Source: Candidatus Poribacteria bacterium (GTDB lineage Bacteria > Poribacteria > WGA-4E > JAJDTR01). From it: a stretch of DNA of 64,000 nt. This document shows positions 1 through 27,400 of this stretch, one piece after another (the first letter of the stretch is position 1; each line of letters opens with the position of its first letter). The DNA lies in the NCBI GenBank assembly GCA_965220415.1, contig OZ244829.1:2217209-2281208 (forward strand). Reading direction: 5' to 3'. Below the pieces are notes generated by a model. The model worked only from the letters and a program-made list of their open reading frames with translations. It had not been told where the DNA came from and did no database searches. A program made the position numbers and the translations under genes.

Positions 1-375
1 GAGATTGGGCGTAGAAGATGGATATGCCAGACTCCAAAAACCGTTCAAATCACCAGTGCCCCAATAAACGTCGCCTGCGTCAACCCTATCTGATAAGAAA
101 GCCTCACCGCCTTCTGAACAAAAGCGAAGCGGTGAGGGTTGTTTGTAAAGGAATCCGGGACCCTCTTGGGCAAGCTCGTAAAGATTAGTTCGCGACGTTA
201 GAGCATTCCAATAATCAGTGACAGAGGTGCGGTATCTCTGTATTCGTTCCGGATGTTCTCGGAGATGCACGACTGCATTGGTCAGCATCAATGCAAGCAG
301 CAGAAGGGTCGCAAGGGCAAAACGAAGGCTATTCAGGTTATCGTAGAGTTCGCGTTTTGCAATGTGCCAGATCAT
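1..375 (-). CDS. ABC-2 family transporter permease, N-terminal part (gene runs off window start); paralog of the 515..2038 gene
   Basis: Minus-strand translation from ATG (rc of 373-375) gives MIWHIAKRELYDNLNSLRFALATLLLLALMLTNAVVHLREH..., which parallels the N-terminus (MLITLIRRELLDNLMTFRFAAAMF...) of the neighbouring permease. The frame stays open to position 1. Confidence 0.5.
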   Translation of the reverse strand, partial: MIWHIAKRELYDNLNSLRFALATLLLLALMLTNAVVHLREHPERIQRYRTSVTDYWNALTSRTNLYELAQEGPGFLYKQPSPLRFCSEGGEAFLSDRVDAGDVYWGTGDLNGFWSLAYPSSTPNL

Positions 376-514: not shown

Positions 515-2038
515 CTACACTTCACTCTTTTGGAAAATCAGAAATATCGCCATGAACAGCGCTAGATTGGTCATCAGTAATAGGTATACATCAGGAAGTG
601 CTCGTTTTGCATTTGCTACGACATCGACTCTTTGAAAGGAAAACTGTGGCAGTGTGCGCCAATCTACTGGTTTTTTGTCTGCAGTAAACCATTGTCGAAC
701 TTCGAACGCTTTGTTATCAATGAAATAGTCAATCACCGTCTGTCGGTACTGCCGCGCGGCGTCGAAAAAATCTTGAACCCCCGGGAGATCTGTGCCAGCC
801 CATGCCTGTGTTGCCGCATCGTATAGCCCCGTTGGAGAAAGTTTCAGCAAGAGTCTATCCACGGTTGCCGGCTGAATAAAGCGGTCTTCCAGTGCTGGCT
901 TGCGGACGATCCATGTGCGCCCTGCTGTGTTGATGGTTCGTGGGCAGAGGAAGCGGAAATAATCCTGAACGTACGACACGTTTGGTTCGGATTCTTTTTC
1001 GAATGATTCCATGTACACTTTAATTTCGTAATAATACAGGAATGTTGACGCGTTTTCTTTAGAAATGACCTCGTCTTCTCCTGTCGTCGTCCATTCTATA
1101 TTATTAAAGATTAAAGAATGGAGATCCTCCCCAGAAACTGGGTCATTGGCGAGAAAGTGTTTCCGTTCTCTATGAAATTCGTCCCACATCTGTTTCATTT
1201 GATTGAGTGCGGATTCCGCACGCGGTTTAAGGTGCTCTGAAGAATGAGTCATGGCAAGGATCATGTTGGGATACACCAATACCAAGAATCCCCAGACAAA
1301 CATGGAGATCATGAGCGCGGTACCGGTTCTTTGTGTTGCTGCCGAAATCAGTAGCCCGATGAGGTAGAACACGGAAAGATAAGCAAGTGATGAAATAACC
1401 AGTCCGCTAATGCGCAGAAAATCGGGGGTACCGAGCGAGAAGGAGGTAGTGGTTGTTAGCAGAATCAATGAGAGCAGTAAACTAAGCATTAGTGGTATGA
1501 GCAGGCAGAGCATTGCGCCGATGTACTTTGCAAGAAGGATATGTCCGCGATTGAGGGGATGTGTCAATACTAGACGCAACGTACCACGCTCGCGTTCCCC
1601 TGCCAGTGCGTCATAGGCAAATATGAGCGCCATCAAGCTGAGCACTACCTCGAAGATGAAGACGATGTCAATCGAGTTGAAGATGTTGAGAAACGGATTG
1701 TCCGAGCCACTCATCTCGGCATCCCAGAGTGTTGGCACAAAGGCGTAGGATACCTCAACTTGGTTTCCCAGCCGTTTGTCCAATCCAACGTTGAAAATGC
1801 TCAGTGGGTTGGGCGGTCTGTCAACAACGATCTCGCCGGCGGAATAGGTTTTGGTCTCTCGTAATTGATACCGGTGCATTTTGACCGCGGTGTTATAGCT
1901 TGCCAATCGCCGCTCGTAATCCTTGATGAGGACAGCGGTATTGGCGACCACGAGCAACAACATAATGAACATTGCCGCAGCGAAGCGGAATGTCATCAGA
2001 TTGTCAAGGAGTTCTCGACGTATGAGTGTAATTAGCAT
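515..2038 (-). CDS. ABC-2 type transporter permease with large extracytoplasmic loop (GldF/NosY-like family)
   Basis: 542-aa ORF. The likely true start is the internal Met (MLITLIRRELLDNL...) at 2038, preceded by a GGGGG RBS. It has an N-terminal TM helix, a long hydrophilic loop and a C-terminal cluster of about 5 TM helices, as in ABC-2 permeases. Confidence 0.6.
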   Translation of the reverse strand: MLITLIRRELLDNLMTFRFAAAMFIMLLLVVANTAVLIKDYERRLASYNTAVKMHRYQLRETKTYSAGEIVVDRPPNPLSIFNVGLDKRLGNQVEVSYAFVPTLWDAEMSGSDNPFLNIFNSIDIVFIFEVVLSLMALIFAYDALAGERERGTLRLVLTHPLNRGHILLAKYIGAMLCLLIPLMLSLLLSLILLTTTTSFSLGTPDFLRISGLVISSLAYLSVFYLIGLLISAATQRTGTALMISMFVWGFLVLVYPNMILAMTHSSEHLKPRAESALNQMKQMWDEFHRERKHFLANDPVSGEDLHSLIFNNIEWTTTGEDEVISKENASTFLYYYEIKVYMESFEKESEPNVSYVQDYFRFLCPRTINTAGRTWIVRKPALEDRFIQPATVDRLLLKLSPTGLYDAATQAWAGTDLPGVQDFFDAARQYRQTVIDYFIDNKAFEVRQWFTADKKPVDWRTLPQFSFQRVDVVANAKRALPDVYLLLMTNLALFMAIFLIFQKSEV

Positions 2039-2269
2039 TGAGTTACCCCCGCGCACCAACGCCCTAAAACCATACGAGCATTGCGGGCATTGGTTCGACA
2101 TATATGATAAATGTATGATAACATAATCACATGACTGAGTCACCTAAACCCGGAATAACTAACGCCTGTCAACCTTTGGTCTTGCACACCGCCTAGGGTT
2201 TCTGTTGACATCTCAGCGGAGTCAAGCTTCGGTGTCAGAGAGTCCTATGCGAATAAAATCTCTCACCAG

Positions 2270-2440
2270 ATACTTGGTGCGTTGGTTAAGGTGCTTTCGA
2301 TGAAAAATCGCGAGCATTCATTGGGGATAAATCTGCAAACCATCGTATTTGATGCGAACGAGCAACCCATTGAACGTTCAACAAAAGGACAGCGTGTCTA
2401 CTACAGCGGTAAAAAACGGCACACCAGAAGAGTGTAATTG
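2270..2440 (+). pseudogene. Relic of a DDE transposase (IS5/IS4-like); internal fragment only
   Basis: Plus-frame translation ...TIVFDANEQPIERSTKGQRVYYSGKKRHTRRV* resembles the first catalytic-D region (xxDxTExPIxRP) and the YSGKKKRHT motif of IS5-family DDE transposases. It is flanked by stops with no start and lies in a 1-kb non-coding gap. Confidence 0.4.
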
Positions 2441-3214
2441 ATTACATATTCTTATCTTCCGCATTATCGATCGCCTAAAAGTTAAATTTCTCAATTGGCC
2501 GTATCCCGCATCATAATTGAAAGCATGCCATTATCCCTGACGGAAGAATTCTTTCAGCAAGCAACACTTACTAGTCAGAGTCCCTTTCCTCGATCCAGAG
2601 GATCGAAATGTCAATAGAACGCGACATGTCCAGAGTCCCGCGCTCCAGAGGAGCGCCATGTGGTGTGTTACTTCGTAAAAATGAAGTTGATGATGAAAGG
2701 GCAAAACAGGTCAATCAATCGGACTCAGGGTAGTACCTTGGTGATTTTTTCTCGTTTGTAAATATATACCCCAAGGTCTGCTATGTGACAATTCGAGATT
2801 ACACAAGTCTATTATGCGGAAGATGAGATATTTGGCGCCTTTAGCAATATTGTCGTTTATCTGCCGTAAAGGTAGCGCTAATGATTACAGTAATTTAGAG
2901 GAAAACCATCTGGCAAGGGAACTCTTCGAGACTTCGAAATTGGCCGACAGGAGTCATCAAGGCATAGCCAAACTGTTTGCCAACAGTTCGCCGCCCATCA
3001 AGAGATGCCGGGGCCAGCCATTGACTCAGGACGCGGAGCAATTCAACCAACAGTTGACGCCACACAGGGCTGCCATTGAAGGTGCAAAGTTTTTTTGGAT
3101 CGCCAATGACGGCTATTAAAGCAAGCAACATGATTATTATAATTGCCAAGATTTCTGTACCTACACAGGTCTATATCGGAAAATTATCTAATTCCGTACC
3201 AAGGAGGATACCCA

Positions 3215-3946
3215 ATGTTAGAAACTAGAGACCTAACCAAAGTCTATGACAACACAATTCGAGCTGTCAACGAATTGAACTTGAAGATCGAACGGGGAGA
3301 AATCTACGTCATACTCGGTGCGAATGGTGCTGGGAAAAGCACCACCATCTCCATGCTCCTGAATTTCATTGACCCAACCAGTGGCACGGCGTTAGTCAAT
3401 GATATTGAGATTCCAAAGTTTCCACTCGAAGCGAAGAAGCATCTCGCTTACGTATCGGAAAACGTGGAGTTGTATCGAAACTTTACCGCACGACAGAACC
3501 TTGAGTTTTTCACCAAGCTGGGAGGCAAAAAGAAAGTGACTCGCGATGAACTGGATGCGACACTTGCTCGTGTCGGGTTGCCGGAAGAATCATTTAAACG
3601 TCGGGTGAAAACCTTTTCCAAAGGGATGCGACAGCGATTGGGAATCGCGGTAGCCATCATGAAGGGCGCCGATGCGATACTGCTTGATGAACCCACCTCT
3701 GGACTAGACCCAAAGGGTGGGGCGGACTTCCTGAACCTTTTGCGCGAACTGAGGAGTGAAGGCAAAGCCATCTTCATGTCTACCCACGACATATTTCGTG
3801 CCAAGGAAATCGCTGATCGGCTTGGGATTCTTGTGAGTGGAAATCTGGTTCGCGAGCTATCCCGTCAAGAGATTGAAACCGAAGATCTGGAAGCCCTATA
3901 CCTGCGTTATGTGGCGGGGTACGAATCGGAAGAGGAAGTAGCATAA
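3215..3946 (+). CDS. ABC transporter ATP-binding protein (ABC-2 type, no fused permease)
   Basis: Walker A GANGAGKST, signature/Q-loop region, Walker B ILLDEPTSGLD and an H-loop are present. AGGAGG RBS lies 8 nt before the ATG at 3215 (the ORF track start at 3143 is an upstream extension). Confidence 0.85.
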   Translation: MLETRDLTKVYDNTIRAVNELNLKIERGEIYVILGANGAGKSTTISMLLNFIDPTSGTALVNDIEIPKFPLEAKKHLAYVSENVELYRNFTARQNLEFFTKLGGKKKVTRDELDATLARVGLPEESFKRRVKTFSKGMRQRLGIAVAIMKGADAILLDEPTSGLDPKGGADFLNLLRELRSEGKAIFMSTHDIFRAKEIADRLGILVSGNLVRELSRQEIETEDLEALYLRYVAGYESEEEVA

Positions 3947-4052
3947 ACGGCAATATCGCCTCCTACTCTTTCTCCACTTCCCCCTTTGCGTTCTGTCGCA
4001 ATATAGCAAGACAGTTGGTAGGATAACCCTGTCATTTATCTGTTCTTGCCCG

Positions 4053-6392
4053 ATGTTGTTAAAGGAGAAACTCTACGTGCGAAGTATATACCTCTTATTG
4101 ATACTCAGTTTGATGTTTCTATCGGGTCATGAGCCGCTCCGGTCACAAGTGGTGGACTCGCGAGATGCGTCGCAATCTGAAAAGGCGCGCACCAAAGATG
4201 AACAGTTGCGCCAGATTCAAATCGACAAAGCCAAACTGGACATGGAACTGGCGAAAAAACTGATGGAGAAAAAAGAGGATGAGCTTAAGAACCTAAAGAA
4301 TATGCTCCAAGAAGCGAATAACATCGTGACAGTTCTAGAGGTGAACCGTGCGGAGGAGGAATACGAGCTCGCAAAGGCAAACTATGAGAACGCGAAACTC
4401 GACTTGCAAAACACCGAACTTGATTCGCTGAAGGCGGCTTGGCACATCACCATCTTGGGGACCCGGCGATATGAAGCACGAGATGGCAGGGAGATGTTCT
4501 CTATCACGTTAAAAAACAGCTCGCTGCCGGTCAAATTGGAGGAGAGCTCTCGGGTTCTTGAAAGGGATGTTATCATCAGCGCGCAGATTGACGACATCTA
4601 TGTCTCAATTAAAGACCAAGGAGACTTCGGACGGCAAGGTGCTATCGTAGCCACTCCTTACGAGGTACGTATTCCATCGCTGAAGGAGGGTGAGGAGAAA
4701 ACACTGGAGTTTGAACTGGTCAAGGATGAAGTGCAGGACGTGGTCGTTAGCCTAAAATATCTTGATCTTGAGGAGGACCGCAATATCCATCTCAAGCAGG
4801 AGGAACCCTACATCTCGGTGCTGTCTGCGCGGCGGTACAAGGAGGGAGATCGAAGGAGGCTTGAGATTGTCCTCAAATACGGAGCGATTCTGGATCGTTC
4901 CGTGCCCCCATCCAAGCGGGACATTGACGATCTGCCTGCCGCTCCGGATGAAAGGGCGACATACGGTGCCGCACAAGAGATCAACAATGTCTACGTCTCA
5001 ATTAAGGATGAAAAGGATGCGATTATCGGCGTACCGTATGAGATTCGAATTCCGAACCTCAAGGATCAACAGTCGAAAACCCTCGATTTTGAACTCCGCC
5101 GCAACGTGGACAGCATTATCGTGAGCTTGAGGTATCTGGAACAGTCCTATCCCTACAAGATTCATCTTGAGGAGGACACCCGCCACATCTCAATCACCAG
5201 CGCCAAGAAGTATCGTGAGAACAATCAGATAATGGTCACTATCCGCTTGAAGAACACCTCGACGACTGAGTCCATGCCCGTTGACGCAACCGTGGAAGAA
5301 ATCGCCGCCGCCAACGAGATTCGTTCTATTTTTGTTTCCCTCAAAGACATTGACCCAACTAGTGGGACTCAATCGACGAATATTGCCCAACCTTATGAGC
5401 AGAAGATACCGCTGCTTGGCTACAATGACGAAGTCGACCTGACGTTCCAACTCCAGAAGGATGTGGACTCAATCATGATCGCATTGAAATACCCCGATCT
5501 TGTTGAGACGGACAATCGTTTGGTTTATTTACAGAAGGAGTCGGAGGAGGATGTGGTCAATGTCAGTTCGCTGCAGTTCTCCCAAGAGGGCAATCTCGGA
5601 AGTTCCGTTACCTATGATATGACACTGGATCGGTTAGCGGAGACGGAGAATACTTTCCAGTTGCGGATTATCAATCTTCTCAATAGCTTGACTTTTGAAT
5701 TTCAGGATACCGAGAGCCAATCGCGCGTGTCACAGGTGAAATTCACACAGGCGCAATCCAAACGAGATCTATCACTTTTCGTCCACGTGACCGAAGAGCT
5801 CGATGCCTCCTATCTTGACAGGACGCTGGAATTTTACGTTGCCGTCATTGATGCAAATGAGGCGCAACAACTCGGCGGCGTGAACAATCGTCTAGAGCTA
5901 TCCCCGGAGCAGATTAGCCAGATTAAGGGCGGTGTCGAGCGGTTTGAGCTTATCCCCAAAGGCGTGCCGGAGATTGAGCTATTTATCCCTAGTTCTTACC
6001 ATACCATCAAAATCGGGGAGCAGATAGACATGACATTGAAGTTACGAAATAGCGGCACGCGAGATTTAGCCGATATTCGGATGGGGGTCGATGTCTACAC
6101 CGGCTGGGACTATGTTGTTGAACCGGAAGTCGTCGCAAAGCTGGTACGGAATGAAGAGACCGAAGTACATCTGACGCTCATCCCATCTCCGGACGTGGGC
6201 GTCGGAGAGTACGAAGCGAAGGTCAATGCGGAGCTCACAGTTGATAATCGGCCCGTCGAGGCACGAGAAAAGACGGTCAGAGTTCACATCCAATCACAGC
6301 CTAGGCTCTCGGTAACAACGATTTTGTTTGGGGTGCTCGTTCTATTGGTCATTGGCATAGCGGTTGTCACCGTGCGGCTCAGTCGCCGATAG
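4053..6392 (+). CDS. Membrane-anchored coiled-coil protein with four ~115-aa internal repeats and C-terminal TM anchor; possible atypical membrane-fusion/adaptor protein
   Basis: N-terminal TM helix (SIYLLLILSLMFLSG), a long heptad-like coiled coil (residues ~40-130) as in HlyD-type adaptors, four repeats each containing [IV][FY]VS[IL]KD...PYE.[RK]IP.L..........[FL][EQ]L..(D/N)V(D/Q)S[IV].[IV][AS]L[KR]Y, a NEW3/CARDB-like beta region, and a C-terminal TM helix (TILFGVLVLLVIGIAVVTV). A GTG at 4077 with AAGGAG 7 nt upstream is an alternative start. Confidence 0.6.
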   Translation: MLLKEKLYVRSIYLLLILSLMFLSGHEPLRSQVVDSRDASQSEKARTKDEQLRQIQIDKAKLDMELAKKLMEKKEDELKNLKNMLQEANNIVTVLEVNRAEEEYELAKANYENAKLDLQNTELDSLKAAWHITILGTRRYEARDGREMFSITLKNSSLPVKLEESSRVLERDVIISAQIDDIYVSIKDQGDFGRQGAIVATPYEVRIPSLKEGEEKTLEFELVKDEVQDVVVSLKYLDLEEDRNIHLKQEEPYISVLSARRYKEGDRRRLEIVLKYGAILDRSVPPSKRDIDDLPAAPDERATYGAAQEINNVYVSIKDEKDAIIGVPYEIRIPNLKDQQSKTLDFELRRNVDSIIVSLRYLEQSYPYKIHLEEDTRHISITSAKKYRENNQIMVTIRLKNTSTTESMPVDATVEEIAAANEIRSIFVSLKDIDPTSGTQSTNIAQPYEQKIPLLGYNDEVDLTFQLQKDVDSIMIALKYPDLVETDNRLVYLQKESEEDVVNVSSLQFSQEGNLGSSVTYDMTLDRLAETENTFQLRIINLLNSLTFEFQDTESQSRVSQVKFTQAQSKRDLSLFVHVTEELDASYLDRTLEFYVAVIDANEAQQLGGVNNRLELSPEQISQIKGGVERFELIPKGVPEIELFIPSSYHTIKIGEQIDMTLKLRNSGTRDLADIRMGVDVYTGWDYVVEPEVVAKLVRNEETEVHLTLIPSPDVGVGEYEAKVNAELTVDNRPVEAREKTVRVHIQSQPRLSVTTILFGVLVLLVIGIAVVTVRLSRR

Positions 6393-6427
6393 CTCATTGC
6401 GTAAGCGAACGGTGGAAGGAAAACGGG

Positions 6428-7837
6428 ATGGGGGAAAAGTATCGTACATCGTGTATCGCGCGATACGCGCTGTGCCTCATGTACGGCGCATTCTGCGCGT
6501 GGATTTTGAATAGCGCCGAGCCGACTTTGGCGCAAGGCGAGGTAACACTGACGTTGGAGAAAGCGTCTCGACTCACGTTGAAGAACAATGAGAAAGTGCT
6601 TAAAGCGGAGAAAGTCCTGGAACGCGCACAGGCGAACCTGCAAACCGTCCGTTCTGTTTACCTTCCTCAAATAGGACTCACCGGATTTTATGAACGGCGG
6701 AAAAGTGACGACCATGACTTGGACGACAGGGATTACCTTTCCAGTTTTTCCCTCAGCCAAGTAATTGCGCGGTTTGGCGAAGTTCCACAAGACCTGGATC
6801 AGGCGCAAGAAGATGTGCGCAAGTCGGGCATTGAACTGAAAAGCGCCAAACAGGAGGTCATCTTCACTCTGAGAAGACTTTGGCACAACATAACATTGAC
6901 GGAAGAGGAGATTCAACAACGAAGTGTTATTGAGACTACATTGCAGGAAAAGCTCATAGTTGCCAAAAGGAAGCACACCGAAAAAAGAATACCCATCCTG
7001 AGTGTGTTGAACACGGAGTTGGAGTTGGCAGAGCAGCAGTTGGCGCTCAACGAATTGAGACGACGGCTGGATATTGACAAAGCGGAACTGGTTCGATTGA
7101 CAGGGCTGAACGCATTGGCGACCGTTCGTCTGTCCGGTGCCATACCGGATGATGACCTGTCGCTTGAACGCGCGGTAGAATTGGCGTTAACGAACCGAAC
7201 GGAACTTGAAGATTTCACTGGCGCGATAACTCGTCAGGAGAGACTGGTCAAGGAAACGTTTTGGGATCGAATCCCGGAACTTGACGCCGCTCTCCGCTAC
7301 CGCGATGCCCATCTGTTTTTGAGCCAGCAGGAACGGACATGGGATACGACTGCGGCATACGATTACCCTTTTCTCGAACGGAAAACAGATAATACCATCC
7401 CGATTGAAGGAATTCGCGACAATCGCGATGGCTGGGAGGTTCGCCTAAACTTCAATCTTTCCCTTTTCGACGGCGGGGCGACAGACGGGCGTCAGAAGGC
7501 AGAGCGCGCCGAATTGTCACGTCTCCAACTGGAACTCATCGATTTACAGAAGGGGATTAGAGTCGAGGTGCGCCGCGCCTATCGGGAAGTGGCGAATGCC
7601 AGAGAACGTATGGAGATTGAAGAAAAGCGCGTGCAAATCTTCGAGCAGCGGCTGCGGACGATTGAACGAGTTCTTGATGAAGGGCTGGACCTACCGAGCT
7701 ATCGCGGTTTGACGTTTGATGACGCTTTCCAAGCCCAAGCCGAGTTTACCGAAGCGCAGCGGGTGTTCTATCGCACACGCCGGGATTATGCGGCGGCAAA
7801 GGAGCAACTGCGTGAAGTGTTGGGATGGACAAATTGA
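6428..7837 (+). CDS. TolC-family outer-membrane efflux protein
   Basis: 469 aa with a signal-like N-terminus and two long alpha-helical repeat halves (LxxAxxNLxxV..., ELxxAExxL...) typical of the OEP/TolC family. It starts 35 bp after the preceding gene. Confidence 0.75.
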   Translation: MGEKYRTSCIARYALCLMYGAFCAWILNSAEPTLAQGEVTLTLEKASRLTLKNNEKVLKAEKVLERAQANLQTVRSVYLPQIGLTGFYERRKSDDHDLDDRDYLSSFSLSQVIARFGEVPQDLDQAQEDVRKSGIELKSAKQEVIFTLRRLWHNITLTEEEIQQRSVIETTLQEKLIVAKRKHTEKRIPILSVLNTELELAEQQLALNELRRRLDIDKAELVRLTGLNALATVRLSGAIPDDDLSLERAVELALTNRTELEDFTGAITRQERLVKETFWDRIPELDAALRYRDAHLFLSQQERTWDTTAAYDYPFLERKTDNTIPIEGIRDNRDGWEVRLNFNLSLFDGGATDGRQKAERAELSRLQLELIDLQKGIRVEVRRAYREVANARERMEIEEKRVQIFEQRLRTIERVLDEGLDLPSYRGLTFDDAFQAQAEFTEAQRVFYRTRRDYAAAKEQLREVLGWTN

Positions 7838-19118: not shown

Positions 19119-22100
19119 CTACTTACCGATCAACATCTTGCGAGTTGCAGCGAAATCATCGGCGGTTAGGGTGTAAAAGTATACGCCACTGACAACACGC
19201 TCACCGACACTGTTGCGGCCATCCCAATACGCCGCAAGACTTCGTTCGGTGTAATAACTAGCTACCTGATACCCTAGATTCAAATGACGCACTAACGTAC
19301 CGTTGATGTCGTAAATCGAGATTTGTACCTCGGCATCATTGGCTAACCCGTACGGAATCCACGTCTCCGGGTTAAACGGATTTGGGTAGTTGGGAAAAAG
19401 CACAGTCTCTGCCGGGGTTAGAGTTGCCAGAAGATGCTCTAGGAAAAGAACGCCAAGCTGCAATGTGGCGTCCTTCAGATCAAGTTCTCTCGCTTGTGCC
19501 AACCACTCTCCCACGTCCGCTCTTGTAGGAGGGATCTCCAGGTTGCGACTCCAGGCTGAAGGCGCGGCGGCTGCGTTCCCAAGCGCACTCACCACCAACA
19601 CCAAATCAAGGATGTTCACTATTCCATCCCCGTTGACATCCGCGGGCAAATCTGCATCTTCGGTCCCGAGACCTGACGCCACCGAGACCAAATCCAAAAA
19701 ATTCACAACATCGTCCCTGTTTACATCCTCCAGGATAGGCGGCAATTCGGCGGTTGTTGTGGCGGTCTGGCTCTGCTGAATCCCTGTAACAGCCACTTCG
19801 ACGGTGTTCGTTCCTGGATTTGGGCCCAATGTGAGGGTACTCTCCGCCCGACCATCACTATCCGTCGTGGCACTGGTTACACTGAGTGTCCCACCGCCAC
19901 CGGTAACCGTGAAGGTGACCTGCACACCCGGTAAGGGTTCGCCGGATCGATCTGCCACGTATACGACAATCGGTCTGGGAAGCGCTTCACCGATGAACCC
20001 CTTTTGGTCGAATCCGGAGATTATCCAGAACGCCAAAGGCGTTCGGATGCCTCGGGCAGTAAACGTCTCTGTTCGCGTAATCCCCGCTACAGTCACGTCA
20101 ACGCTGTTCGTTCCCGGATCTGGTCCCAACGTTAGGATACTCTCCGCCCGACCATCGCTCTCCGTCATGACGCTTGTGGCGCTCAGCGTCCCACCGCCAG
20201 CGGTAACCGAGAACGTTACTTCGGCGCCCGGCATAGGTTCGTCAAACTGGTCTCGCACTTCCACGATAAACGGGTTTTCAAGCGCCTCACCGTACGGCCC
20301 CTCTTGGTCGTCTCCCGAGATTATCCCCAATGTCGTGGGAATCCTGATGCCTTGGGCAGTAAACGTCTGGTTCTCCTGAATCCCCGAAATGGACACGGTC
20401 ACTGTATTCGCTCCCGGATTGGATCCCAACGTGAGGGTACTCTCGGCTCTTCCGTTCGCATCAGTCGTAACGCTTGTGGCGCTCAGCGTCCCGCCGCCAC
20501 TGCTGACCGAGAACGTGACTTGAACACCAGCGAGGGGTTTATCCGACTGATCTCGCACCTCCACCACAAACGGGTTCGCAAGCGCCGAACCGGGCAGTCC
20601 CTGTTGGCCGCCGCCCGAGATTATCTCCAATGTCTTGGGAATTCTGATGCCTTGGGCAGTAAGCGTCTGCTTCTCCTGAAGTCCAGTAACGGACACAGTA
20701 ACTGTATTTGCTCCCGGATTGACTCCCAACGTCAAGGTACTCTCGGCTCGTCCGTTGGCGTCGGTGATTGCGGTGGTGGCACTCAGCGATCCACTGCCCG
20801 CGAGGACAGTAAAGCCCACAGTAATCCCTTCCATCGGAGCATCGTACTGATCGCGGACTTCAACCACAAACGGGTTCGCCAAAGCTTCACCTGTCAAACC
20901 GTTCTGATTATCTCCCGAGAAGATTGACAGAGCCGTTGGAATCGGTGGTGGGAGAACCGCTTCAGCACTAAAGACCGCTGTTTGGGAAAGACCTTCGACA
21001 CTCGCCTCGACGGTGTTCGTGCCGGGACTGCCTCCAAGCGTCAGCGTACTCTCGGCTCGTCCGTTGGCGTCGGTAATTGCGGTGGTGGCACTCAGCGATC
21101 CACTGCCCGCGAGGACAGTGAACCTCACAGTAATCCCTTCCATCGGGGCATCGTACTGATCGCGGACTTCAACCACAAACGGGTTCGCCAACGCTTCACC
21201 TGTCAAACCGTTCTGATTATCGCCGGATATACTCTTTTGGCTTGTCGGTTCTAACACAGGTGGTGTCGTCACTGGCGGATCGATTGTCGTTGGAGGTTGT
21301 GTTGTAATTTGTGGTTGCTGCAGTGACTCTTGTTGCTGCTGTTGTGACGATGGCGATGATTCTTGCTGCTGTTGTGACGATGGCGATGATTCTTGTCGCT
21401 GTTGTGACGGTGGCGATGGTTCTTGCTGTTGCTGTGACGATGGCGGTGGGGTACCAACTGTCGCGGTTCCGCTGGTAGATTTGGAGCCGACCGTCGCTGT
21501 GACCGTGTATGAACCGGAGGCGCTGTTCCCAAGTGTTAGTGTTGTGGAGGCCTGGCCGTTGCTGCCGGTTGTCGCACTTGTGGAATTCAACGACGCATTC
21601 CCATCGCCTGATGTGATACTAAACGTCACGGTTTTCCCTGACGCGGCACTCCCATCCTCCTGAACTTCAACAGTAAACGTCAATGCATCACCAGGGGCAC
21701 CAGATCCGGGACCACTTACCACACTTATCGATGATTCTGGCGGCGACTGCGGGGATGGGGTGCCAACTGTCGCGGTTCCGCTGGTAGATTCGGAGCCGAC
21801 CGCCGCTGTGACCGTGTATGAACCAGAGGCACCGCCCCGAAGTATCAGTAGCGTCTTTGCTCGTCCATTGCTATTAGTTGCTACATTTGTAGGATTTAGC
21901 AACACAGTCCCATCGTCTGGACTCAGGCTGAACGTCACGGTTTTCCCTGACGCGGGACTCCCATCCTCCTGAACCTCAACAGTAAACATTAGGCCCTGAC
22001 CGGGATTGCCAGATCCGGGACCACTTACCACACTTATCGATAATTGTGGTGTGTCAACCGTCGCTGTCCCGCTCGTAGATGTGCTGCCAACTGTCGCTGT

Positions 22101-23051
22101 GAGCGTGTATGAGCCGGCGGCGCTGTTCCCAAGTGTTAGCGTTGTGGATGCCTGGCCGTTGGTACCGGTTGTCGCACTTGTGGGATTCAGCGACGCATTT
22201 CCATCGCCTGATGTGATACTAAACGTCACGGTCTTCCCTGACGCTGCACTGTCATCCTCCTGGACCTCAACAGTAAAGGTCAATGCAGCACCGGGGGCAC
22301 CAGACCCGGGACCACTTACCACACTTATCGATAATTCTGGCTGCGTCGGCGGCGATGGGGTCTCAACTGTCGCAGTCCCGCTGGTAAATTTAGTGCCGAC
22401 TGTCGCTTTGACCGTGTATGAGCCGGCGGCGCTGTTCCCAAGTGTTAGTGTTGTGGATGCTCGCCCGTTGGTACCGGTTGTCGCACTTGTGGGATTCAGC
22501 GACGCATTCCCATCGCCTGATGTGATACTAAACGTCACGGTCTTCCCTGACGCTGCACTGTCATCCTCCTGGACCTCAACAGTAAAGGTCAATGCAGCAC
22601 CGGGGGCACCAGACCCGGGACCACTTACCACACTTATCGATAATTCTGGAGGCGGTGGTGGGGCCTTAATTGTCGCAGATCCGCTCGCAGATGCGTCGCC
22701 GACCGTCGCTGTGACCGTGTATACGCCGGAGGATCCGCTCCCGGTAGACAGTGTGGTCGTCACCGACTGGTTGCTAACGGACGTCGCGCTTGTGGGACTC
22801 AGAGACACGGTCCCATCATCTGGGCTCACACTAAACGTCACCGTTTGACCTCCCGCGGGGTTTGAATCCTCTCCGACATAGACATATGCACTAAACCTAA
22901 ACGAACTTCCGGGGCTGCGGGCAAAAGGAGTATAAGTCATTATAATGGAGACTTCTTCCGTTTCCTCCTCTTCCGTTGCCTCCAATGGCATCAACACACA
23001 TACCATAAATAGTGCGATGAAACAAATCAGTGATTTTTTCATAAGTTTCAA
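19119..23051 (-). CDS. Giant secreted surface protein: tandem Ig-like (Big) domains, Q/S/P-rich linker, dockerin-like repeats, C-terminal T9SS (Por) sorting domain
   Basis: Signal peptide. Repeated ~95-aa units (SISVVSGPGSG...TFTVEVQEDDSAASGKTVTFS and GDNQNGLTGEALANPFVVEVRDQYD...) resemble Big_2/invasin-like folds. DVNRDDVVNFLDLV...DVNGDGIVNILDLVLVV are dockerin type I repeats. The C-terminus NYPNPFNPETWIPY...GVYFYTL matches the Por_Secre_tail signature. Confidence 0.85.
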   Translation of the reverse strand: MKLMKKSLICFIALFMVCVLMPLEATEEEETEEVSIIMTYTPFARSPGSSFRFSAYVYVGEDSNPAGGQTVTFSVSPDDGTVSLSPTSATSVSNQSVTTTLSTGSGSSGVYTVTATVGDASASGSATIKAPPPPPELSISVVSGPGSGAPGAALTFTVEVQEDDSAASGKTVTFSITSGDGNASLNPTSATTGTNGRASTTLTLGNSAAGSYTVKATVGTKFTSGTATVETPSPPTQPELSISVVSGPGSGAPGAALTFTVEVQEDDSAASGKTVTFSITSGDGNASLNPTSATTGTNGQASTTLTLGNSAAGSYTLTATVGSTSTSGTATVDTPQLSISVVSGPGSGNPGQGLMFTVEVQEDGSPASGKTVTFSLSPDDGTVLLNPTNVATNSNGRAKTLLILRGGASGSYTVTAAVGSESTSGTATVGTPSPQSPPESSISVVSGPGSGAPGDALTFTVEVQEDGSAASGKTVTFSITSGDGNASLNSTSATTGSNGQASTTLTLGNSASGSYTVTATVGSKSTSGTATVGTPPPSSQQQQEPSPPSQQRQESSPSSQQQQESSPSSQQQQQESLQQPQITTQPPTTIDPPVTTPPVLEPTSQKSISGDNQNGLTGEALANPFVVEVRDQYDAPMEGITVRFTVLAGSGSLSATTAITDANGRAESTLTLGGSPGTNTVEASVEGLSQTAVFSAEAVLPPPIPTALSIFSGDNQNGLTGEALANPFVVEVRDQYDAPMEGITVGFTVLAGSGSLSATTAITDANGRAESTLTLGVNPGANTVTVSVTGLQEKQTLTAQGIRIPKTLEIISGGGQQGLPGSALANPFVVEVRDQSDKPLAGVQVTFSVSSGGGTLSATSVTTDANGRAESTLTLGSNPGANTVTVSISGIQENQTFTAQGIRIPTTLGIISGDDQEGPYGEALENPFIVEVRDQFDEPMPGAEVTFSVTAGGGTLSATSVMTESDGRAESILTLGPDPGTNSVDVTVAGITRTETFTARGIRTPLAFWIISGFDQKGFIGEALPRPIVVYVADRSGEPLPGVQVTFTVTGGGGTLSVTSATTDSDGRAESTLTLGPNPGTNTVEVAVTGIQQSQTATTTAELPPILEDVNRDDVVNFLDLVSVASGLGTEDADLPADVNGDGIVNILDLVLVVSALGNAAAAPSAWSRNLEIPPTRADVGEWLAQARELDLKDATLQLGVLFLEHLLATLTPAETVLFPNYPNPFNPETWIPYGLANDAEVQISIYDINGTLVRHLNLGYQVASYYTERSLAAYWDGRNSVGERVVSGVYFYTLTADDFAATRKMLIGK
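21341..21460. repeat. 39-bp tandem repeat (~3 copies) inside the surface-protein CDS encoding the SSPSSQQQQE linker
   Basis: TCTTGCTGCTGTTGTGACGATGGCGATGAT-type units repeat at 21341, 21380 and 21419. In-frame, translated as SSQQQQESSPSSQQQQ... Confidence 0.6.
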
Positions 23052-24483: not shown

Positions 24484-27400
24484 ATGAAAATTAAGAATAT
24501 TGACTTCCCCAAACCCCTGTTAGATGCCTTGCATGCAAATAAACTGGTGGTGTTCGCCGGGGCAGGAGTTTCAATGGGTGACCCTGCCCATCTACCAAAT
24601 TTCAAATCGTTAACCGATATGATCGCCCAACGTACTGGCAAAAACTTGCGCAAGGATGAAAAGTTCGAAGAATTCCTCGGAAGATTGCACGATGACGAAG
24701 TAAAGGTTCACGAAATTGCAGCCGGTGTACTTTCCCAAGAAAGTTTGCAAGCAACCAAACTACATAAGAATCTTTTACAGCTTTATCCCAACATCGGGCC
24801 AGTTCGCCTAGTGACCACCAATTTCGATCTCCTGTTTGAGCAGGCCGCAGAGGGAATGTTCGACAGTCTACCAGAGGTGTTTCGGGCACCTGCGTTACCC
24901 TTGGGGCGCCAGTTCAACGGCATTATTCATGTTCACGGTTCCGTCTCAAAACCCGGCCAGATGGTGCTTACAGATAAGGATTTCGGTCTCGCCTATCTGA
25001 CCGATGGATGGGCTCGACACTTCCTTGTTGAACTGTTCAGTAATTTTACAATCCTCTTTGTTGGCTATAGTCATGACGACACGATTATGAATTATCTGGC
25101 GCGTGCGCTTCCGGCCGGTTCAGAGGATCGGCGCTTCGTTTTAACCGGTTCAGAAGACAGTAAAAAGCCAGGCGATTGGCGTTTGCTCGGAATTCATCCC
25201 ATTACCTACCCACAGACTCACAAGGAAGACCATAGCAAACTTGAGACGGGTGTCCGCGGCCTCGCCAATCATGTCCGACGCAGTGTCGTTGATTGGCATC
25301 GCGAGATCACTGCAATTGCTGAAAACCCGCCTCCTCTAGCTGATGACGAGAAAATAGTGGGAACTATTGAGGAGGCGCTTGGAGATAAGACAAAGACTCA
25401 ATTCTTCACAAAAGCAGCGTCAAACCCAGATTGGATTGATTGGCTCGACGAGCACGGGTGCTTAAAGGCGCTGTTTGGTAGCGATTCGTTAAGAGACCAG
25501 GATATGGCTCTGTCTTGGTGGGTGGCAGATCGGTTTTTATACGACCATGCAAACAGAATTTTCCTTCTAATTAGCAAATACGATACGCGATTACATCCAA
25601 AGTTTTGGCACGATTTAGCTCGGAAGATTGGTAGGGATATGGAGGCTTCCCGAGATAAGGTAGTTCTATCTCGCTGGATTTCATTGCTGCTATCAACGGC
25701 GCCAAGCGACGGGGACAGCACCAATGGGGTGTACGTAGATACCGGCAATCTTCTTGATCAGATAGGCAAACGCTGTATTGCACACGGGATGTTAGAAGAT
25801 TTGTTGAGAATCTTCGATACCATGATGCAGAGTCGTTTATTAATAAGGGGTGGTTATCCGCTGCTCAGTGACGATGGAGAAGAGGAGAATCTCTTATTTG
25901 ACGCGAAATTGTCGCTAATCGGTAAATATGGCGGACTGAATAAGTTATGGGAAGGGGGACTGAGACCGAATTTATTTCAAGTAGCCGAGCCATTACTAGA
26001 ATCGGCTGTCAGACGGTTGGAAGAATGGTATCTTACATTACACACTTGGGGAAAGGCAAATCGCGAGTTGGAACCTGCTAGCATCCGGCGTTCCGCCATT
26101 GAACCTCACGAACAGGACAGGCATCCTCAACCGGTTGACGCGATAATAGATGTTGTTCGAGACTGCCTTGAGTCACTGGCATTGAACCAGCAAGACTCGG
26201 CGGCGCGGTGGTGTGATAAGCTCGTGCAGTCGGATGCACCATTGCTGCGCCGGCTGGCGGTACATGGACTATCCATACGCACCGACCTGTCACCGGACGA
26301 CAAAATTCAGTGGTTGCAAGAACATATAGACCTGCACGAATACGCTATTCACCACGAAATATTCCAGGCGGTGTACCAAGCATACCCCAAGATGAGTTCG
26401 GAACACCGAAAAACTCTGATTGAAGCCGTGAGGGCGTACCGTTGGCAGCACGAAGATTGTGAGGATGATAGGAAATTCACGTCACGAGTACATTTCGACT
26501 GGCTTCATTGGCTCCACAAATCAGATCCGACCTGTCAGACGGCTAAACAGGCTTTGAACGAGTTACAAGCGGAATACCCAGATTTCGAGCCAAAGAAATA
26601 TCCTGATCTGACATCTTGGATTGAATCAGGTTGGGGCGACCTACCGAACTCATGGACGTCTGAAGAACTCCTGTCAAGACCGACATCTTATTGGCTAGAC
26701 AAACTACTGTCGACTGAGGACTCAGAAAGAAATCGACCGAGATTCGGAATGCTAATTAATAGCATCACAGAAGCGACGGAACAGGACTTCGCTTGGGGTT
26801 TAAGTTTGGCTGATGAATTGGATGCCTCTGAAAAATGGGATTCAGAACTCTGGTACGCCTTGATTCGCGCTTGGTCGAAAATGGCGTTGAACGAAGATAA
26901 GCGCGCACAAGTGGTTTACTGGCTTGGCAGAACCGAACTGTATGCGAAACATTGTCGTGAAATTGCTGATGCGCTTTGCACGCTAGTGAAGAATGGCGGG
27001 CTGCCCTACTCCTTAAACCTACTCCATCAAGCCAACGAGATTGCTGCCACGTTATGGCGTAATCTTGATCGGACCCAATCGATCGAGGAGAAGGAGAACT
27101 GGCTAGACACTGCCATGAACCACCCAGCAGGGTGCCTTGCATACTTCTGGATGTCCAGTTTCTTCCTTTGGCGAGAGCAACAAGACCCTAAGCCTACAAC
27201 TTTCAGTGATGAGTATCTTAGGGCACTGTCAGACATTATGGTAGACCAGTCACTACCGGGGAGGCTGGCACGAACTGTTCTTGCCAGCCAATTGCACTTC
27301 CTGCTGACAGTAGATGAGGGCTGGACACGAGATAATGTGCTACCGCTATTTGAGCCTGAATGTGAAGATTTTCAAGCAGCATGGGACGGCTTTGCAAGGT

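What the first reader, a model, noticed from the sequence alone, without database searches (positions are those of the whole stretch)
515..7837. Possible novel tripartite export system: ABC ATPase + atypical 779-aa dual-anchored coiled-coil/4-repeat protein + TolC, with divergent paralogous ABC-2 permeases
On the plus strand, a stand-alone ABC ATPase (3215-3946), a 779-aa protein (4053-6392) and a TolC-family channel (6428-7837) lie 106 and 35 bp apart, an operon-like arrangement. The middle protein sits where a membrane-fusion protein would be expected and has the N-terminal TM plus coiled coil of HlyD-type adaptors. Unlike those, it then has four ~115-aa tandem repeats, a CARDB/NEW3-like beta region and a second, C-terminal TM anchor; I know of no adaptor family with that layout. 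Two paralogous ABC-2 permeases with large periplasmic loops are encoded divergently (1-375, partial; 515-2038). They are separated from the ATPase by a 1.1-kb gap containing a DDE-transposase relic, which suggests past rearrangement.
Basis: inference. Interest (0 to 1): 0.55.

Follow-up and report, generated by a model that had tools for sequence, protein, structure and literature searches.

The report
Efflux pump with a new-style adaptor
A sponge-symbiont (Poribacteria) operon encodes an ABC transporter and a TolC-like outer-membrane channel, and the usual connecting protein is replaced by an undescribed type: an adaptor-like helical hairpin on a stalk of Ig-like domains, anchored by its C-terminus. 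That suggests a new way to build cell-envelope-spanning export machines.

Summary
They are an ABC-2 permease pair (minus strand), an ABC ATPase, a 779-aa (more likely 771-aa) membrane protein and a TolC-family OEP. Three details need correcting. There are three homologous repeats, not four. The N-terminal hydrophobic segment looks like a cleavable signal peptide, not a second anchor. The start codon is probably GTG 4077.

The order ATPase, NEW3 protein, OEP is essentially invariant in Poribacteria: the OEP follows directly in 76 of 76 loci. About 500-aa relatives in Aminicenantes/Acidobacteriota and Bacteroidota sit in the same kind of ABC-2 operon, and 22 of 52 have an OEP gene immediately upstream. 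No canonical membrane-fusion protein gene recurs in these loci.

A profile of the family's N-terminal helical hairpin, searched against all PDB sequences, hits only periplasmic adaptor hairpins at the top (MexA E 1e-5, then MexJ, MacA, ZneB, AcrA). Most members carry the TolC-binding R-x3-L-x6-S/T tip motif. The rest of the protein is Ig-like β-sandwiches plus a C-terminal TM helix, unlike any described adaptor. In Poribacteria the hairpin tip and both OEP tips are remodelled.

Best reading: an uncharacterised tripartite type-V ABC exporter with a non-canonical adaptor. The substrate is unknown, and no experiment has been done.

The parts
1..375 (-). 5' part (first 125 codons) of a second, paralogous ABC-2 permease gene, downstream of the first on the minus strand and cut by the window edge
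   Evidence: Translation starts MIWHIAKRELYDNLNSLRFALATLLLLALML, parallel to the N-terminus of the neighbouring permease. Tandem permease pairs are the rule in related loci.
515..2038 (-). ABC-2 (type V, NosY-like) permease, 507 aa, with 6 TM helices and two large predicted periplasmic loops (84 aa between TM1-2; 223 aa between TM5-6, the DUF3526 region)
   Evidence: Pfam ABC2_membrane_2 4e-30 and DUF3526 1e-6. The only PDB relative is NosY, E 6e-12 and 9e-13 with a profile. Hydropathy. Homologues are 500-511 aa.
2144..3214 (+). Intergenic gap at the inversion junction, containing a decayed IS5/DDE_Tnp_4-type transposase relic (pieces ~2270-2440 and 2814-3119)
   Evidence: Frame translations show '...IVFDANEQPIERSTKGQRVYYSGKKRHT'. 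ORF 2814-3119 has a weak DDE_Tnp_4 hit, E 0.044. Fragments are shared with L012 and L020 at the same position.
3215..3946 (+). ABC ATPase (243 aa), DrrA/GldA/NosF/ABCA-like NBD, with a strong SD (AGGAGG) upstream
   Evidence: Pfam ABC_tran 2e-30, NCBIfam drrA 8e-53. PDB: ABCA3/1/4/7 NBDs 6e-57 to 1e-49, NosF 8e-33. Sequence.
4053..6392 (+). Adaptor-position protein (779 aa from ATG 4053; more likely 771 aa from GTG 4077): signal peptide, MFP-type alpha-hairpin, five beta-sandwich domains, C-terminal TM anchor
4077..4130 (+). Probable Sec signal peptide (n-region R, h-region SIYLLLILSLMFL, c-region SGHEPLRSQ)
   Evidence: Hydropathy. Homologues have an A-x-A|Q/E ending. This is inference; no SignalP run was possible.
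4194..4439 (+). Alpha-helical hairpin (aa 48-129), with the turn at aa 87-93 (nt ~4311-4331)
   Evidence: AF2 H48-86 and H94-129, pLDDT 83-92. hhalign to the non-poribacterial family hairpin gives prob 98.9%, E 4e-17. That family hairpin hits the MexA/MexJ/MacA/ZneB/AcrA hairpins. The window hairpin hits the Pfam OEP helical part at E 0.009, as AcrA's own hairpin does.
4440..5534 (+). Three tandem homologous beta-sandwich repeats (aa 130-250, 252-372, 378-494), each ending in the ...PYE.RIP.L....... motif block
5559..5957 (+). Fourth beta-sandwich domain with short helical inserts (aa ~503-635). Not sequence-homologous to the repeats, and the best-conserved part of the family (FSQEG.LG...LERLAE motif)
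5973..6293 (+). NEW3/CARDB-type beta-sandwich domain (aa ~641-747), membrane-proximal
   Evidence: Pfam NPCBM_assoc 6.5e-6, CARDB 1.7e-4. AF2 strands.
6312..6386 (+). C-terminal transmembrane helix (aa 754-778), followed by the cytoplasmic tail ...SRR
   Evidence: Hydropathy up to 2.96. AF2 H754-778. The tail 'SRR' is conserved family-wide.
6428..7837 (+). TolC-family outer membrane efflux protein (469 aa) with a signal peptide. Both periplasmic helical turns are remodelled relative to partner OEPs of other phyla (tip 1 ~6974-7006 'HTEKRIPILSV', no Gly; tip 2 ~7679-7747 with a 9-11-aa insertion)
   Evidence: Pfam OEP 1.3e-35 with two stretches, NCBIfam TolC 9e-23. Tip comparison of 78 poribacterial and 22 non-poribacterial partner OEPs. 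The OEP is immediately downstream in 76/76 poribacterial loci.

Best explanation
The locus encodes a tripartite, envelope-spanning exporter of a kind not yet described.

Components:
- The inner-membrane engine is a type V (ABC-2, NosY-like) transporter. It has a heterodimer of paralogous permeases with large periplasmic loops, powered by one ABCA/NosF-like ATPase.
- The exit duct is a TolC-family trimer.
- The two are coupled not by a canonical membrane-fusion protein but by the 771/779-aa protein.

Proposed working of the coupling protein (inferred):
1. After signal-peptide cleavage it is held in the inner membrane only by its C-terminal helix.
2. Its NEW3 domain and the other Ig-like domains form a stalk that rises next to the permease's periplasmic loops.
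3. Its N-terminal alpha-hairpin sits at the distal end. The hairpin is homologous to adaptor hairpins.
4. The hairpins oligomerise and dock on the periplasmic tips of the OEP. This opens the channel and seals it to the transporter, as the MacA, AcrA and HlyD hairpins do.

The number of stalk repeats (one in most lineages, three in Poribacteria) would set the reach across the periplasm. The substrate is unknown. My guess is a hydrophobic or amphipathic molecule taken from the inner membrane or periplasm, exported under envelope-stress control (ECF sigma or sigma-54 two-component neighbours).

Shown: gene content, conservation of linkage, domain architecture, hairpin homology, the tip motif, and absence of a canonical adaptor gene.
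Inferred: signal-peptide cleavage, oligomerisation, physical docking to the OEP and the permease, direction of transport, and substrate.
For: 1. Linkage. In 80 poribacterial genome loci the OEP is immediately downstream in 76/76 and the ATPase immediately upstream in 75/77. ATPase, permease and OEP all lie within 5 kb in 63/68. In relatives with ~30% identity from Aminicenantes/Acidobacteriota and Bacteroidota, the gene lies in OEP-NEW3-ATPase-permease operons, with 4-bp OEP/NEW3 overlaps in L007 and L008. In 80 metagenome loci the OEP is immediately upstream in 22/52, and ABC genes lie within 5 kb in 20/24.
2. No canonical adaptor. None appears in 10 Pfam-annotated contexts. No MFP family recurs among 135 sampled neighbouring ORFs.
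4. Tip motif. At the modelled turn, 108 representatives have R 44%, L 83%, G 60% and S/T 82% with R-x3-L-x6-S/T spacing. This is the RLS motif that binds the TolC tip (PMC3391258; PMC4446572).
5. Correlated remodelling. Poribacteria have a 2-aa insertion and N/M in place of R/L at the hairpin tip. Their OEPs have lost the tip-1 Gly and gained 9-11 aa at tip 2, while OEPs partnered with canonical-tip members keep IG(T/S)L and (A/V)G(M/L) turns.
6. A permease-NEW3 fusion protein exists, P0261.
7. Topology. The N-termini are signal-peptide-like and a C-terminal TM helix is conserved.
Against: - No experiment and no multimer model exist, so docking, stoichiometry and signal-peptide cleavage are inferred.
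- The poribacterial hairpin alone finds no adaptor in the PDB and does not meet the strict RLS motif: it has N80 and M84, plus a 2-residue insertion.
- G plus S-x-x-E at a helical turn is also a generic capping solution.
- More than half of the non-poribacterial loci lack an adjacent OEP, and 4/24 have no ABC genes nearby.
- In the P0261 fusion the N-terminal hydrophobic segment must act as a TM helix. That would hold the hairpin base at the inner membrane.
- Five Ig domains plus the hairpin, if fully extended, would be longer than a usual periplasm.
- The AF2 model has low global confidence (pTM 0.32), so the domain arrangement is unknown.
- The permease model failed (pLDDT 46).
Confidence: 0.6

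Rival explanations
1. The protein is a periplasmic accessory subunit of the ABC-2 transporter (a functional analogue of NosD or GldG: substrate handling, scaffolding or regulation). It does not bridge to the outer-membrane channel. The OEP works with the transporter by another route or serves other pumps.
For: The permease is NosY-like and the ATPase is NosF/GldA-like. NosDFY and GldAFG are precedents for ABC-2 systems with a large periplasmic partner (established knowledge). Many non-poribacterial loci have the NEW3 gene with ABC genes but no adjacent OEP: 30/52 have none immediately upstream. One example is the Bacteroidota locus L006.
Against: It does not explain the hairpin's specific similarity to adaptor hairpins or the RLS-type tip. 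That tip is kept even in loci without an adjacent OEP. It does not explain the 76/76 OEP adjacency in Poribacteria or the overlapping OEP-NEW3 genes elsewhere. It leaves the OEP with no adaptor at all. There is no Pfam or NCBIfam hit to GldG/ABC_transp_aux or NosD.
Confidence: 0.2
2. The N-terminal segment is an uncleaved anchor, so the protein is held in the inner membrane at both ends. The hairpin stands on the membrane, and the Ig domains loop out and back. It may still act as an adaptor, but with a short reach.
For: In the fusion protein P0261 the segment directly follows the last permease TM helix and must span the membrane. The window protein's own c-region (SGHEPLRSQ) is a less canonical cleavage site than in most relatives. 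AF2 draws it as a 23-residue helix.
Against: Family N-termini have short h-regions followed by A-x-A|Q/E, typical of cleaved Sec signals. A hairpin of ~55 A standing on the inner membrane would not reach an OEP tip in a normal periplasm (geometric inference). P0261 is a single, N-terminally truncated metagenomic call and may be an artefact.
Confidence: 0.13
3. The protein is an unrelated envelope or surface Ig-repeat protein (adhesin, S-layer-like, or enzyme-associated NEW3/CARDB module) that only happens to lie between transporter genes.
For: NEW3/CARDB and PapD/HYDIN-like beta-sandwiches are common in glycosidases, proteases and adhesins. The fold searches return mostly such proteins.
Against: The gene order is conserved across phyla, some genes are translationally coupled, and a permease fusion exists. 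The C-terminal TM anchor with a short basic tail keeps it in the inner membrane. No catalytic domain is present.
Confidence: 0.04

Closest known systems
MacAB-TolC (ABC-type tripartite efflux pump with the hexameric adaptor MacA)
   Same: ABC ATPase-driven. The permease has a large periplasmic portion. There is a TolC-family exit duct. The adaptor has a long alpha-hairpin whose R-x3-L-x6-S tip docks on TolC, and the family hairpin profile hits the MacA, MexA and AcrA hairpins.
   Different: The permease is ABC-2/NosY-like (type V), not MacB/FtsX (type VII). The adaptor has no lipoyl, beta-barrel or membrane-proximal domains and carries 3-5 Ig-like sandwiches instead. Its hairpin is N-terminal rather than inserted in a lipoyl domain. 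Its anchor is C-terminal rather than N-terminal.
E. coli YbhGFSR (and YhiI-RbbA/YhhJ): ABC-2 exporters encoded with a HlyD-family adaptor
   Same: ABC-2-type permease pair (YbhS/YbhR) plus ATPase, encoded with a periplasmic adaptor and thought to use TolC (PMC7190983 and PMC8277102). This is the nearest precedent for 'ABC-2 + adaptor + OMF'.
   Different: YbhG is a canonical HlyD-type MFP. Here no such gene is present, and the adaptor-position protein has a different body and inverted topology. The permeases here belong to the ABC2_membrane_2/DUF3526 group.
NosDFY (ABC-2 complex with periplasmic partner NosD) and GldAFG of Bacteroidota
   Same: These are the closest sequence relatives of the inner-membrane parts: NosY 6e-12, NosF 8e-33, GldA 3e-42 and GldF 3.5e-7, all below family cut-offs. 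Both are ABC-2 systems that work with a large periplasmic accessory protein.
   Different: No similarity of the 779-aa protein to NosD or GldG was found. Neither system includes an OMF or an adaptor-type hairpin.
NEW3/CARDB-domain membrane proteins ('NEW3 domain-containing protein' in NCBI annotation)
   Same: This is the only annotation these proteins carry in databases. The C-terminal NEW3 domain followed by a TM helix is shared.
   Different: The annotation says nothing about the hairpin, the repeats or the ABC/OEP linkage. No paper in the searchable library links NEW3 proteins or DUF3526 permeases to efflux.

Membership tests
Periplasmic adaptor / membrane-fusion proteins (HlyD, AcrA, MacA, EmrA families) | Alpha-helical hairpin homologous to adaptor hairpins | tested here: met
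   Family-level profile: MexA 1.2e-5, MexJ 4.5e-5, MacA 2.6e-3, ZneB 6.8e-3, AcrA 0.012, all over their hairpins. The window hairpin joins that profile at hhalign prob 98.9%. The poribacterial-only profile is negative, so membership for the window protein rests on transitivity.
Periplasmic adaptor / membrane-fusion proteins (HlyD, AcrA, MacA, EmrA families) | RLS/RLT tip motif (R-x3-L-x6-S/T) at the hairpin turn | tested here: inconclusive
   The family as a whole meets it: R 44%, L 83%, S/T 82% in register. The window protein does not meet it strictly (N80, M84, a 2-aa insertion, T93). Functional adaptors without RLS are known (PMC4446572).
Periplasmic adaptor / membrane-fusion proteins (HlyD, AcrA, MacA, EmrA families) | Lipoyl (barrel-sandwich) and beta-barrel domains flanking the hairpin | tested here: not met
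   No HlyD_D23, HlyD_3, Biotin_lipoyl_2 or CusB_dom_1 hit at E<0.1, whereas AcrA gives all of them. AF2 shows the hairpin directly after the signal peptide, followed by Ig-like sandwiches. Foldseek returns no adaptor.
Periplasmic adaptor / membrane-fusion proteins (HlyD, AcrA, MacA, EmrA families) | N-terminal inner-membrane anchor (TM helix or lipid) | tested here: not met
   The N-terminus is signal-peptide-like and has no lipobox Cys. The only strong TM helix is C-terminal, aa 754-778.
Periplasmic adaptor / membrane-fusion proteins (HlyD, AcrA, MacA, EmrA families) | Encoded with an inner-membrane transporter, often with an OMF | tested here: met
Periplasmic adaptor / membrane-fusion proteins (HlyD, AcrA, MacA, EmrA families) | Oligomerises (usually a hexamer) and physically bridges transporter and OMF | not testable with these tools
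   Needs multimer modelling or experiment.
TolC / OEP outer membrane factor (gene 6428-7837) | Two OEP repeats and a signal peptide | tested here: met
   Pfam OEP 1.3e-35 with 2 stretches, NCBIfam TolC subfamily 9e-23 (below its cut-off). The N-terminal ...TLA|QG signal is seen.
TolC / OEP outer membrane factor (gene 6428-7837) | Gly-containing periplasmic turn signatures (TolC GLVA-type first turn) | tested here: not met
   Tip 1 is EKRIP(I/F)LS with no Gly, and tip 2 has a 9-11-aa insertion. Partner OEPs in other phyla keep IG(T/S)LAP and (A/V)G(M/L). The TolC signature is cited from PMC4446572.
ABC-2 / type V exporter (NosY-like permease + ABCA/NosF-like ATPase) | ABC-2 membrane domain with 6 TM helices and a separate NBD of the DrrA/ABCA class | tested here: met
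GldG / ABC_transp_aux accessory proteins | Sequence match to the GldG family | tested here: not met
   No Pfam or NCBIfam hit.

The most novel reading that the evidence does not exclude
A previously unrecognised class of periplasmic adaptor. It has an MFP-type TolC-docking hairpin at the free N-terminal end of a C-terminally anchored stalk of Ig-like domains, whose repeat number tunes its length. It couples one ATPase and one outer-membrane channel to several interchangeable ABC-2 permease pairs (up to ten permease genes per locus). This would be a modular multi-substrate exporter, widespread in Poribacteria, Aminicenantes/Acidobacteriota and Bacteroidota.
Probability: 0.35. Interest if true: 0.8.

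Novelty: new variant of a known kind. Interest (0 to 1): 0.62.

Why it matters
[quoted passage not shown] Here an adaptor keeps only the hairpin, on an unrelated Ig-domain stalk with the opposite membrane topology. If it works as proposed, that would show the TolC-docking hairpin is a portable module, and that envelope-spanning pumps have been built more than once.

It would also assign a function to a large family of 'hypothetical/NEW3 domain' proteins (479 clusters at 50% identity) and to the DUF3526 ABC-2 permeases. It would give a handle on export in uncultivated sponge symbionts and sediment bacteria.

The parallel remodelling of the hairpin tip and the OEP tips in Poribacteria offers a natural experiment on how adaptor-channel specificity evolves.

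Tried and rejected
- The afdb50 fold library was unavailable.
I used the poribacterial alignment on genomes and an Aminicenantes-type alignment on metagenomes instead.
- The poribacterial-only hairpin profile against the PDB gave no adaptor hit. The homology claim for the window protein therefore rests on the hhalign link.
- The window OEP alone has no PDB hit at E<1e-3.
- The AF2 model of the permease was unusable (pLDDT 46, pTM 0.25), so the fold of the DUF3526 loop stays unknown and I did not search with it.
- Precomputed PF25893 hits on some relatives could not be reproduced or identified in the Pfam copy at hand. I recall it as an MFP hairpin family but did not use that.
- The promoter/terminator scan gave no more sites than shuffles.
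- Rfam and tRNA scans found nothing in the window.
- Literature searches returned nothing relevant: DUF3526, NEW3 + ABC, Poribacteria + TolC, and adaptor + ABC-2 + Ig-like.
- The cluster-member look-up added only 'Aminicenantes'.
- Rejected ideas: HlyD-type membership (no lipoyl or beta-barrel domains), GldG or NosD homology (no hits), and 'four repeats' (the fourth is not homologous).

Full report
**Observation**

The window is from a Candidatus Poribacteria genome. All close homologues and 80 related genome loci carry that name.

- The permease (515-2038, minus strand) matches ABC2_membrane_2 (4e-30) and DUF3526.
- The ATPase (3215-3946) matches ABC_tran (2e-30) and is DrrA/GldA-like.
- The last gene (6428-7837) is a two-repeat OEP/TolC protein (1.3e-35).
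- The 779-aa protein hits only NEW3/CARDB near its C-terminus, and nothing of the HlyD type.

The partial ORF 375->1 begins like the permease and is its tandem paralogue. The permease has six predicted TM helices and two long loops of 84 and 223 residues. The 1.1-kb gap holds a decayed IS5/DDE_Tnp_4-like relic. Pieces of it survive at the same junction in relatives L012 and L020, so it is old.

**Corrections to the observation**

- Only three repeats are homologous to each other (BLASTP E 3e-22, 8e-16, 7e-12). The supposed fourth is a different beta-sandwich.
- The N-terminal hydrophobic stretch is short. In homologues it is followed by A-x-A|Q/E, the mark of a cleaved Sec signal peptide.
- An AAGGAG box lies 9 nt before GTG 4077, and the 99%-identical homologue is 771 aa. 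The protein probably starts there.

**Anatomy of the middle protein**

AlphaFold2 with 20 homologues (mean pLDDT 68, pTM 0.32, so domains are credible but their arrangement is not) gives the following:
- a signal helix, then a disordered linker;
- a helical hairpin, H48-86 and H94-129, the most confident part at pLDDT 83-92;
- five beta-sandwich domains;
- a C-terminal TM helix (754-778) followed by the tail SRR.

**The family**

An exhaustive profile search found 479 representative clusters (50% identity). Only three are of the long, ~720-800-aa type. The bulk are 470-560 aa and consist of signal peptide, hairpin, one repeat, domain 4, NEW3 domain and C-terminal TM helix ending in SRR. A repeat HMM finds one copy in 99 of 108 full-length representatives, two copies in 2 and three in 4. 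The three-repeat stalk is therefore a lineage-specific expansion.

Source names place the short forms in Aminicenantes/Acidobacteriota and Bacteroidota. One relative, P0261, is an ABC-2 permease fused to a family member. It is a single metagenomic gene call, so I treat it as weak evidence.

**Context**

In 80 poribacterial genome loci:
- the OEP gene is immediately downstream in 76 of 76 loci with room;
- the ATPase is immediately upstream in 75 of 77;
- ATPase, permease and OEP all lie within 5 kb in 63 of 68.

One to ten ABC-2 permease genes, mostly tandem pairs, surround the single ATPase/NEW3/OEP set. In many relatives a pair sits co-directionally upstream of the ATPase (L001). The inverted pair seen in the window is shared by its closest relatives (L011-L014, L019, L020).

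Outside Poribacteria, Pfam-annotated contexts show these arrangements:
- OEP-NEW3-ATPase-permease-permease (L009);
- OEP-NEW3-permease-ATPase-permease x5 (L007, with a 4-bp OEP/NEW3 overlap);
- OEP-NEW3-NEW3-ATPase (L008, the same overlap);
- ATPase-permease-permease-NEW3 with no OEP (L006, Bacteroidota);
- permease x3-ATPase-NEW3 (L010).

In 80 metagenome loci of the Aminicenantes type:
- the OEP is immediately upstream in 22 of 52;
- ABC genes lie within 5 kb in 20 of 24;
- four loci are orphans with unrelated neighbours;
- a divergent sigma-54 response regulator and histidine kinase pair is frequent.

No HlyD/MFP gene appears in the ten annotated contexts. Among 135 randomly sampled unassigned neighbouring ORFs no adaptor family recurs. 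The only recurrent neighbour is an ECF sigma factor, in 11 members.

**The hairpin is an adaptor-type hairpin**

- A profile of 36 diverse hairpin segments was searched against all 177,635 distinct PDB sequences. Its top 15 hits were exclusively periplasmic adaptors, aligned over their hairpins and in register at the turn: MexA 1.4e-5, MexJ 6.5e-5, a putative efflux adaptor 4.5e-4, an RND MFP 7e-4, MacA 2e-3, ZneB 0.013 and AcrA 0.027. Outer-membrane factors scored weakly further down.
- Removing the poribacterial-type sequences did not change this: MexA 1.2e-5 and AcrA 0.012.
- The poribacterial hairpins alone find nothing. They align with the rest of the family over 81 columns at hhalign probability 98.9%, E 4e-17, with a two-residue insertion at the turn.
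- In Pfam, isolated hairpins give a recurrent weak hit to the helical part of the OEP family (8 of 10; the window's own at E 0.009). AcrA's hairpin behaves the same way (E 0.07), and an isolated MexA hairpin hits nothing.

**Tip motif**

Across 108 representatives the turn reads R-x3-L-x3-G-h-h-[S/T]-x-x-[E/D], with R 44%, L 83%, G 60% and S/T 82%. This is the RxxxLxxxxxxS 'RLS' motif at the tip of MacA, AcrA and MexA (RLT in HlyD). Mutating it abolishes TolC binding (PMC3391258; PMC4446572). Members whose loci lack an adjacent OEP keep the motif.

The window protein deviates, with N80, M84, an inserted N89-N90, and T93. These residues are nonetheless invariant within Poribacteria.

Its partner OEP deviates too. 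OEPs next to canonical-tip members have IG(T/S)LAP and (A/V)G(M/L) turns, resembling the TolC signatures. All 78 poribacterial OEPs have EKRIP(I/F)LS with no glycine at turn 1 and a 9-11-residue insertion at turn 2. I read this as co-evolution of a tip-to-tip interface. That is an inference from two clades, not a statistical co-variation test.

**Inner-membrane part**

The permease's only solved sequence relative is NosY (6e-12; 9e-13 with a profile). The ATPase is closest to the ABCA3/1/4/7 NBDs (1e-57 to 1e-49) and to NosF (8e-33). This makes it a type V ABC exporter with unusually large periplasmic loops. My attempt to model the permease failed (pLDDT 46).

**Mechanism proposed**

Shown: composition, linkage, architecture, hairpin homology, the tip motif, and absence of a canonical adaptor.

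Inferred:
1. The signal peptide is cleaved.
2. The protein stands on its C-terminal helix beside the permease dimer.
3. The NEW3 domain, domain 4 and one to three repeats form a stalk.
4. The distal hairpins oligomerise and dock on the OEP tips to open and seal the duct, as in MacAB-TolC.
5. ATP hydrolysis by the ABC-2 engine pushes a substrate, probably hydrophobic or amphipathic and taken from the membrane or periplasm, into the duct.
6. Several permease pairs sharing one ATPase, adaptor and channel would broaden substrate range.

Regulation by ECF sigma or sigma-54 two-component systems suggests an inducible envelope function.

**Rivals**

- The protein is a NosD/GldG-like accessory without OEP contact (0.2).
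- It is truly anchored at both ends (0.13).
- It is an unrelated Ig-repeat envelope protein (0.04).

**Comparison and novelty**

The system works like MacAB-TolC. Genetically it is closest to the E. coli YbhGFSR idea of an ABC-2 exporter with an adaptor (PMC7190983, PMC8277102). It is not a member of the MFP family as defined. The lipoyl and beta-barrel domains and the N-terminal anchor were tested and are absent, and only the hairpin is shared.

Two adaptor reviews and the comprehensive 2021 review of tripartite systems mention no Ig-like or C-terminally anchored adaptor. The searchable literature has nothing on DUF3526 or on NEW3 proteins in efflux.

I rate it a new variant of a known kind, with interest 0.62. 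An efflux specialist would be surprised by an adaptor that keeps only the hairpin. All of the evidence is computational, and the substrate is unknown.

Noticed in passing
window 24484-28044 (+): A 1186-aa protein with an N-terminal SIR2_2 domain and a C-terminal DUF4020. It matches the PADLOC Dsr1 models (E 5e-70), so it is a DSR1-like anti-phage defence sirtuin in a sponge symbiont.
   Followed up: partly
window 19119-23051 (-): A 1310-aa protein with nine Big_1/invasin-type Ig repeats, macroglobulin-like domains, a dockerin and a Por_Secre_tail (type IX secretion C-terminal sorting domain). It is a candidate secreted adhesin of the symbiont.
   Followed up: no
window 37898-42226 (-): A 1442-aa fusion of fatty-acyl reductase (NAD_binding_4 + Sterile), AMP-binding enzyme, carrier protein and acyltransferase domains. 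This is an unusual all-in-one lipid (wax or ether-lipid-like) synthesis architecture.
   Followed up: no
L011-L090 and L007 (related loci): One ATPase/NEW3/OEP set is surrounded by 1-10 ABC-2 permease genes, mostly tandem pairs (8 in L007). Several poribacterial genomes carry two complete loci. One engine and duct may serve many alternative permease pairs.
   Followed up: partly
L025 (contig CBDCWS010000001.1): A typical poribacterial ATPase-NEW3-OEP locus (65% identity) lies on a contig of a MAG labelled Nitrosopumilus sp. (an archaeon). This is probably a binning error in the public record.
   Followed up: no
P0261 (metagenomic protein, 892 aa): An ABC-2 permease (ABC2_membrane_2, 1.3e-29) fused in frame to a NEW3-family member. 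In it the 'signal peptide' would be a seventh TM helix. It is either a Rosetta-stone hint of physical association or a gene-call artefact.
   Followed up: partly
L102, L101, L105, L108 (metagenome loci); also L009 2763-3398: These are orphan family members without ABC or OEP neighbours. A DUF6305 gene lies divergently next to the NEW3 gene in L102 and also occurs in the Aminicenantes-type locus L009. A DUF1573/HYDIN-like Ig protein follows in L102.
   Followed up: partly
window 2144-3214 and L012 8495-8706, L020 8139-8614: The transposase relic at the permease/ATPase inversion junction is shared in different states of decay by genomes about 90% identical at the protein level. The insertion, and probably the inversion, predates their split.
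   Followed up: yes
window 54380-58003 (+): A 1207-aa AddA-like UvrD helicase with a C-terminal PD-(D/E)XK nuclease. Its PADLOC GajB/DRT hits look like generic UvrD similarity rather than a defence system.
   Followed up: no
Family hairpin segments, e.g. window aa 47-52 (nt 4191-4208): A conserved T/S-K/R-E-E-x-L motif opens helix 1 of the hairpin right after the signal peptide across the whole family (TKDEQL in the window). Its role is unknown; it could be a capping or interaction motif.
   Followed up: no
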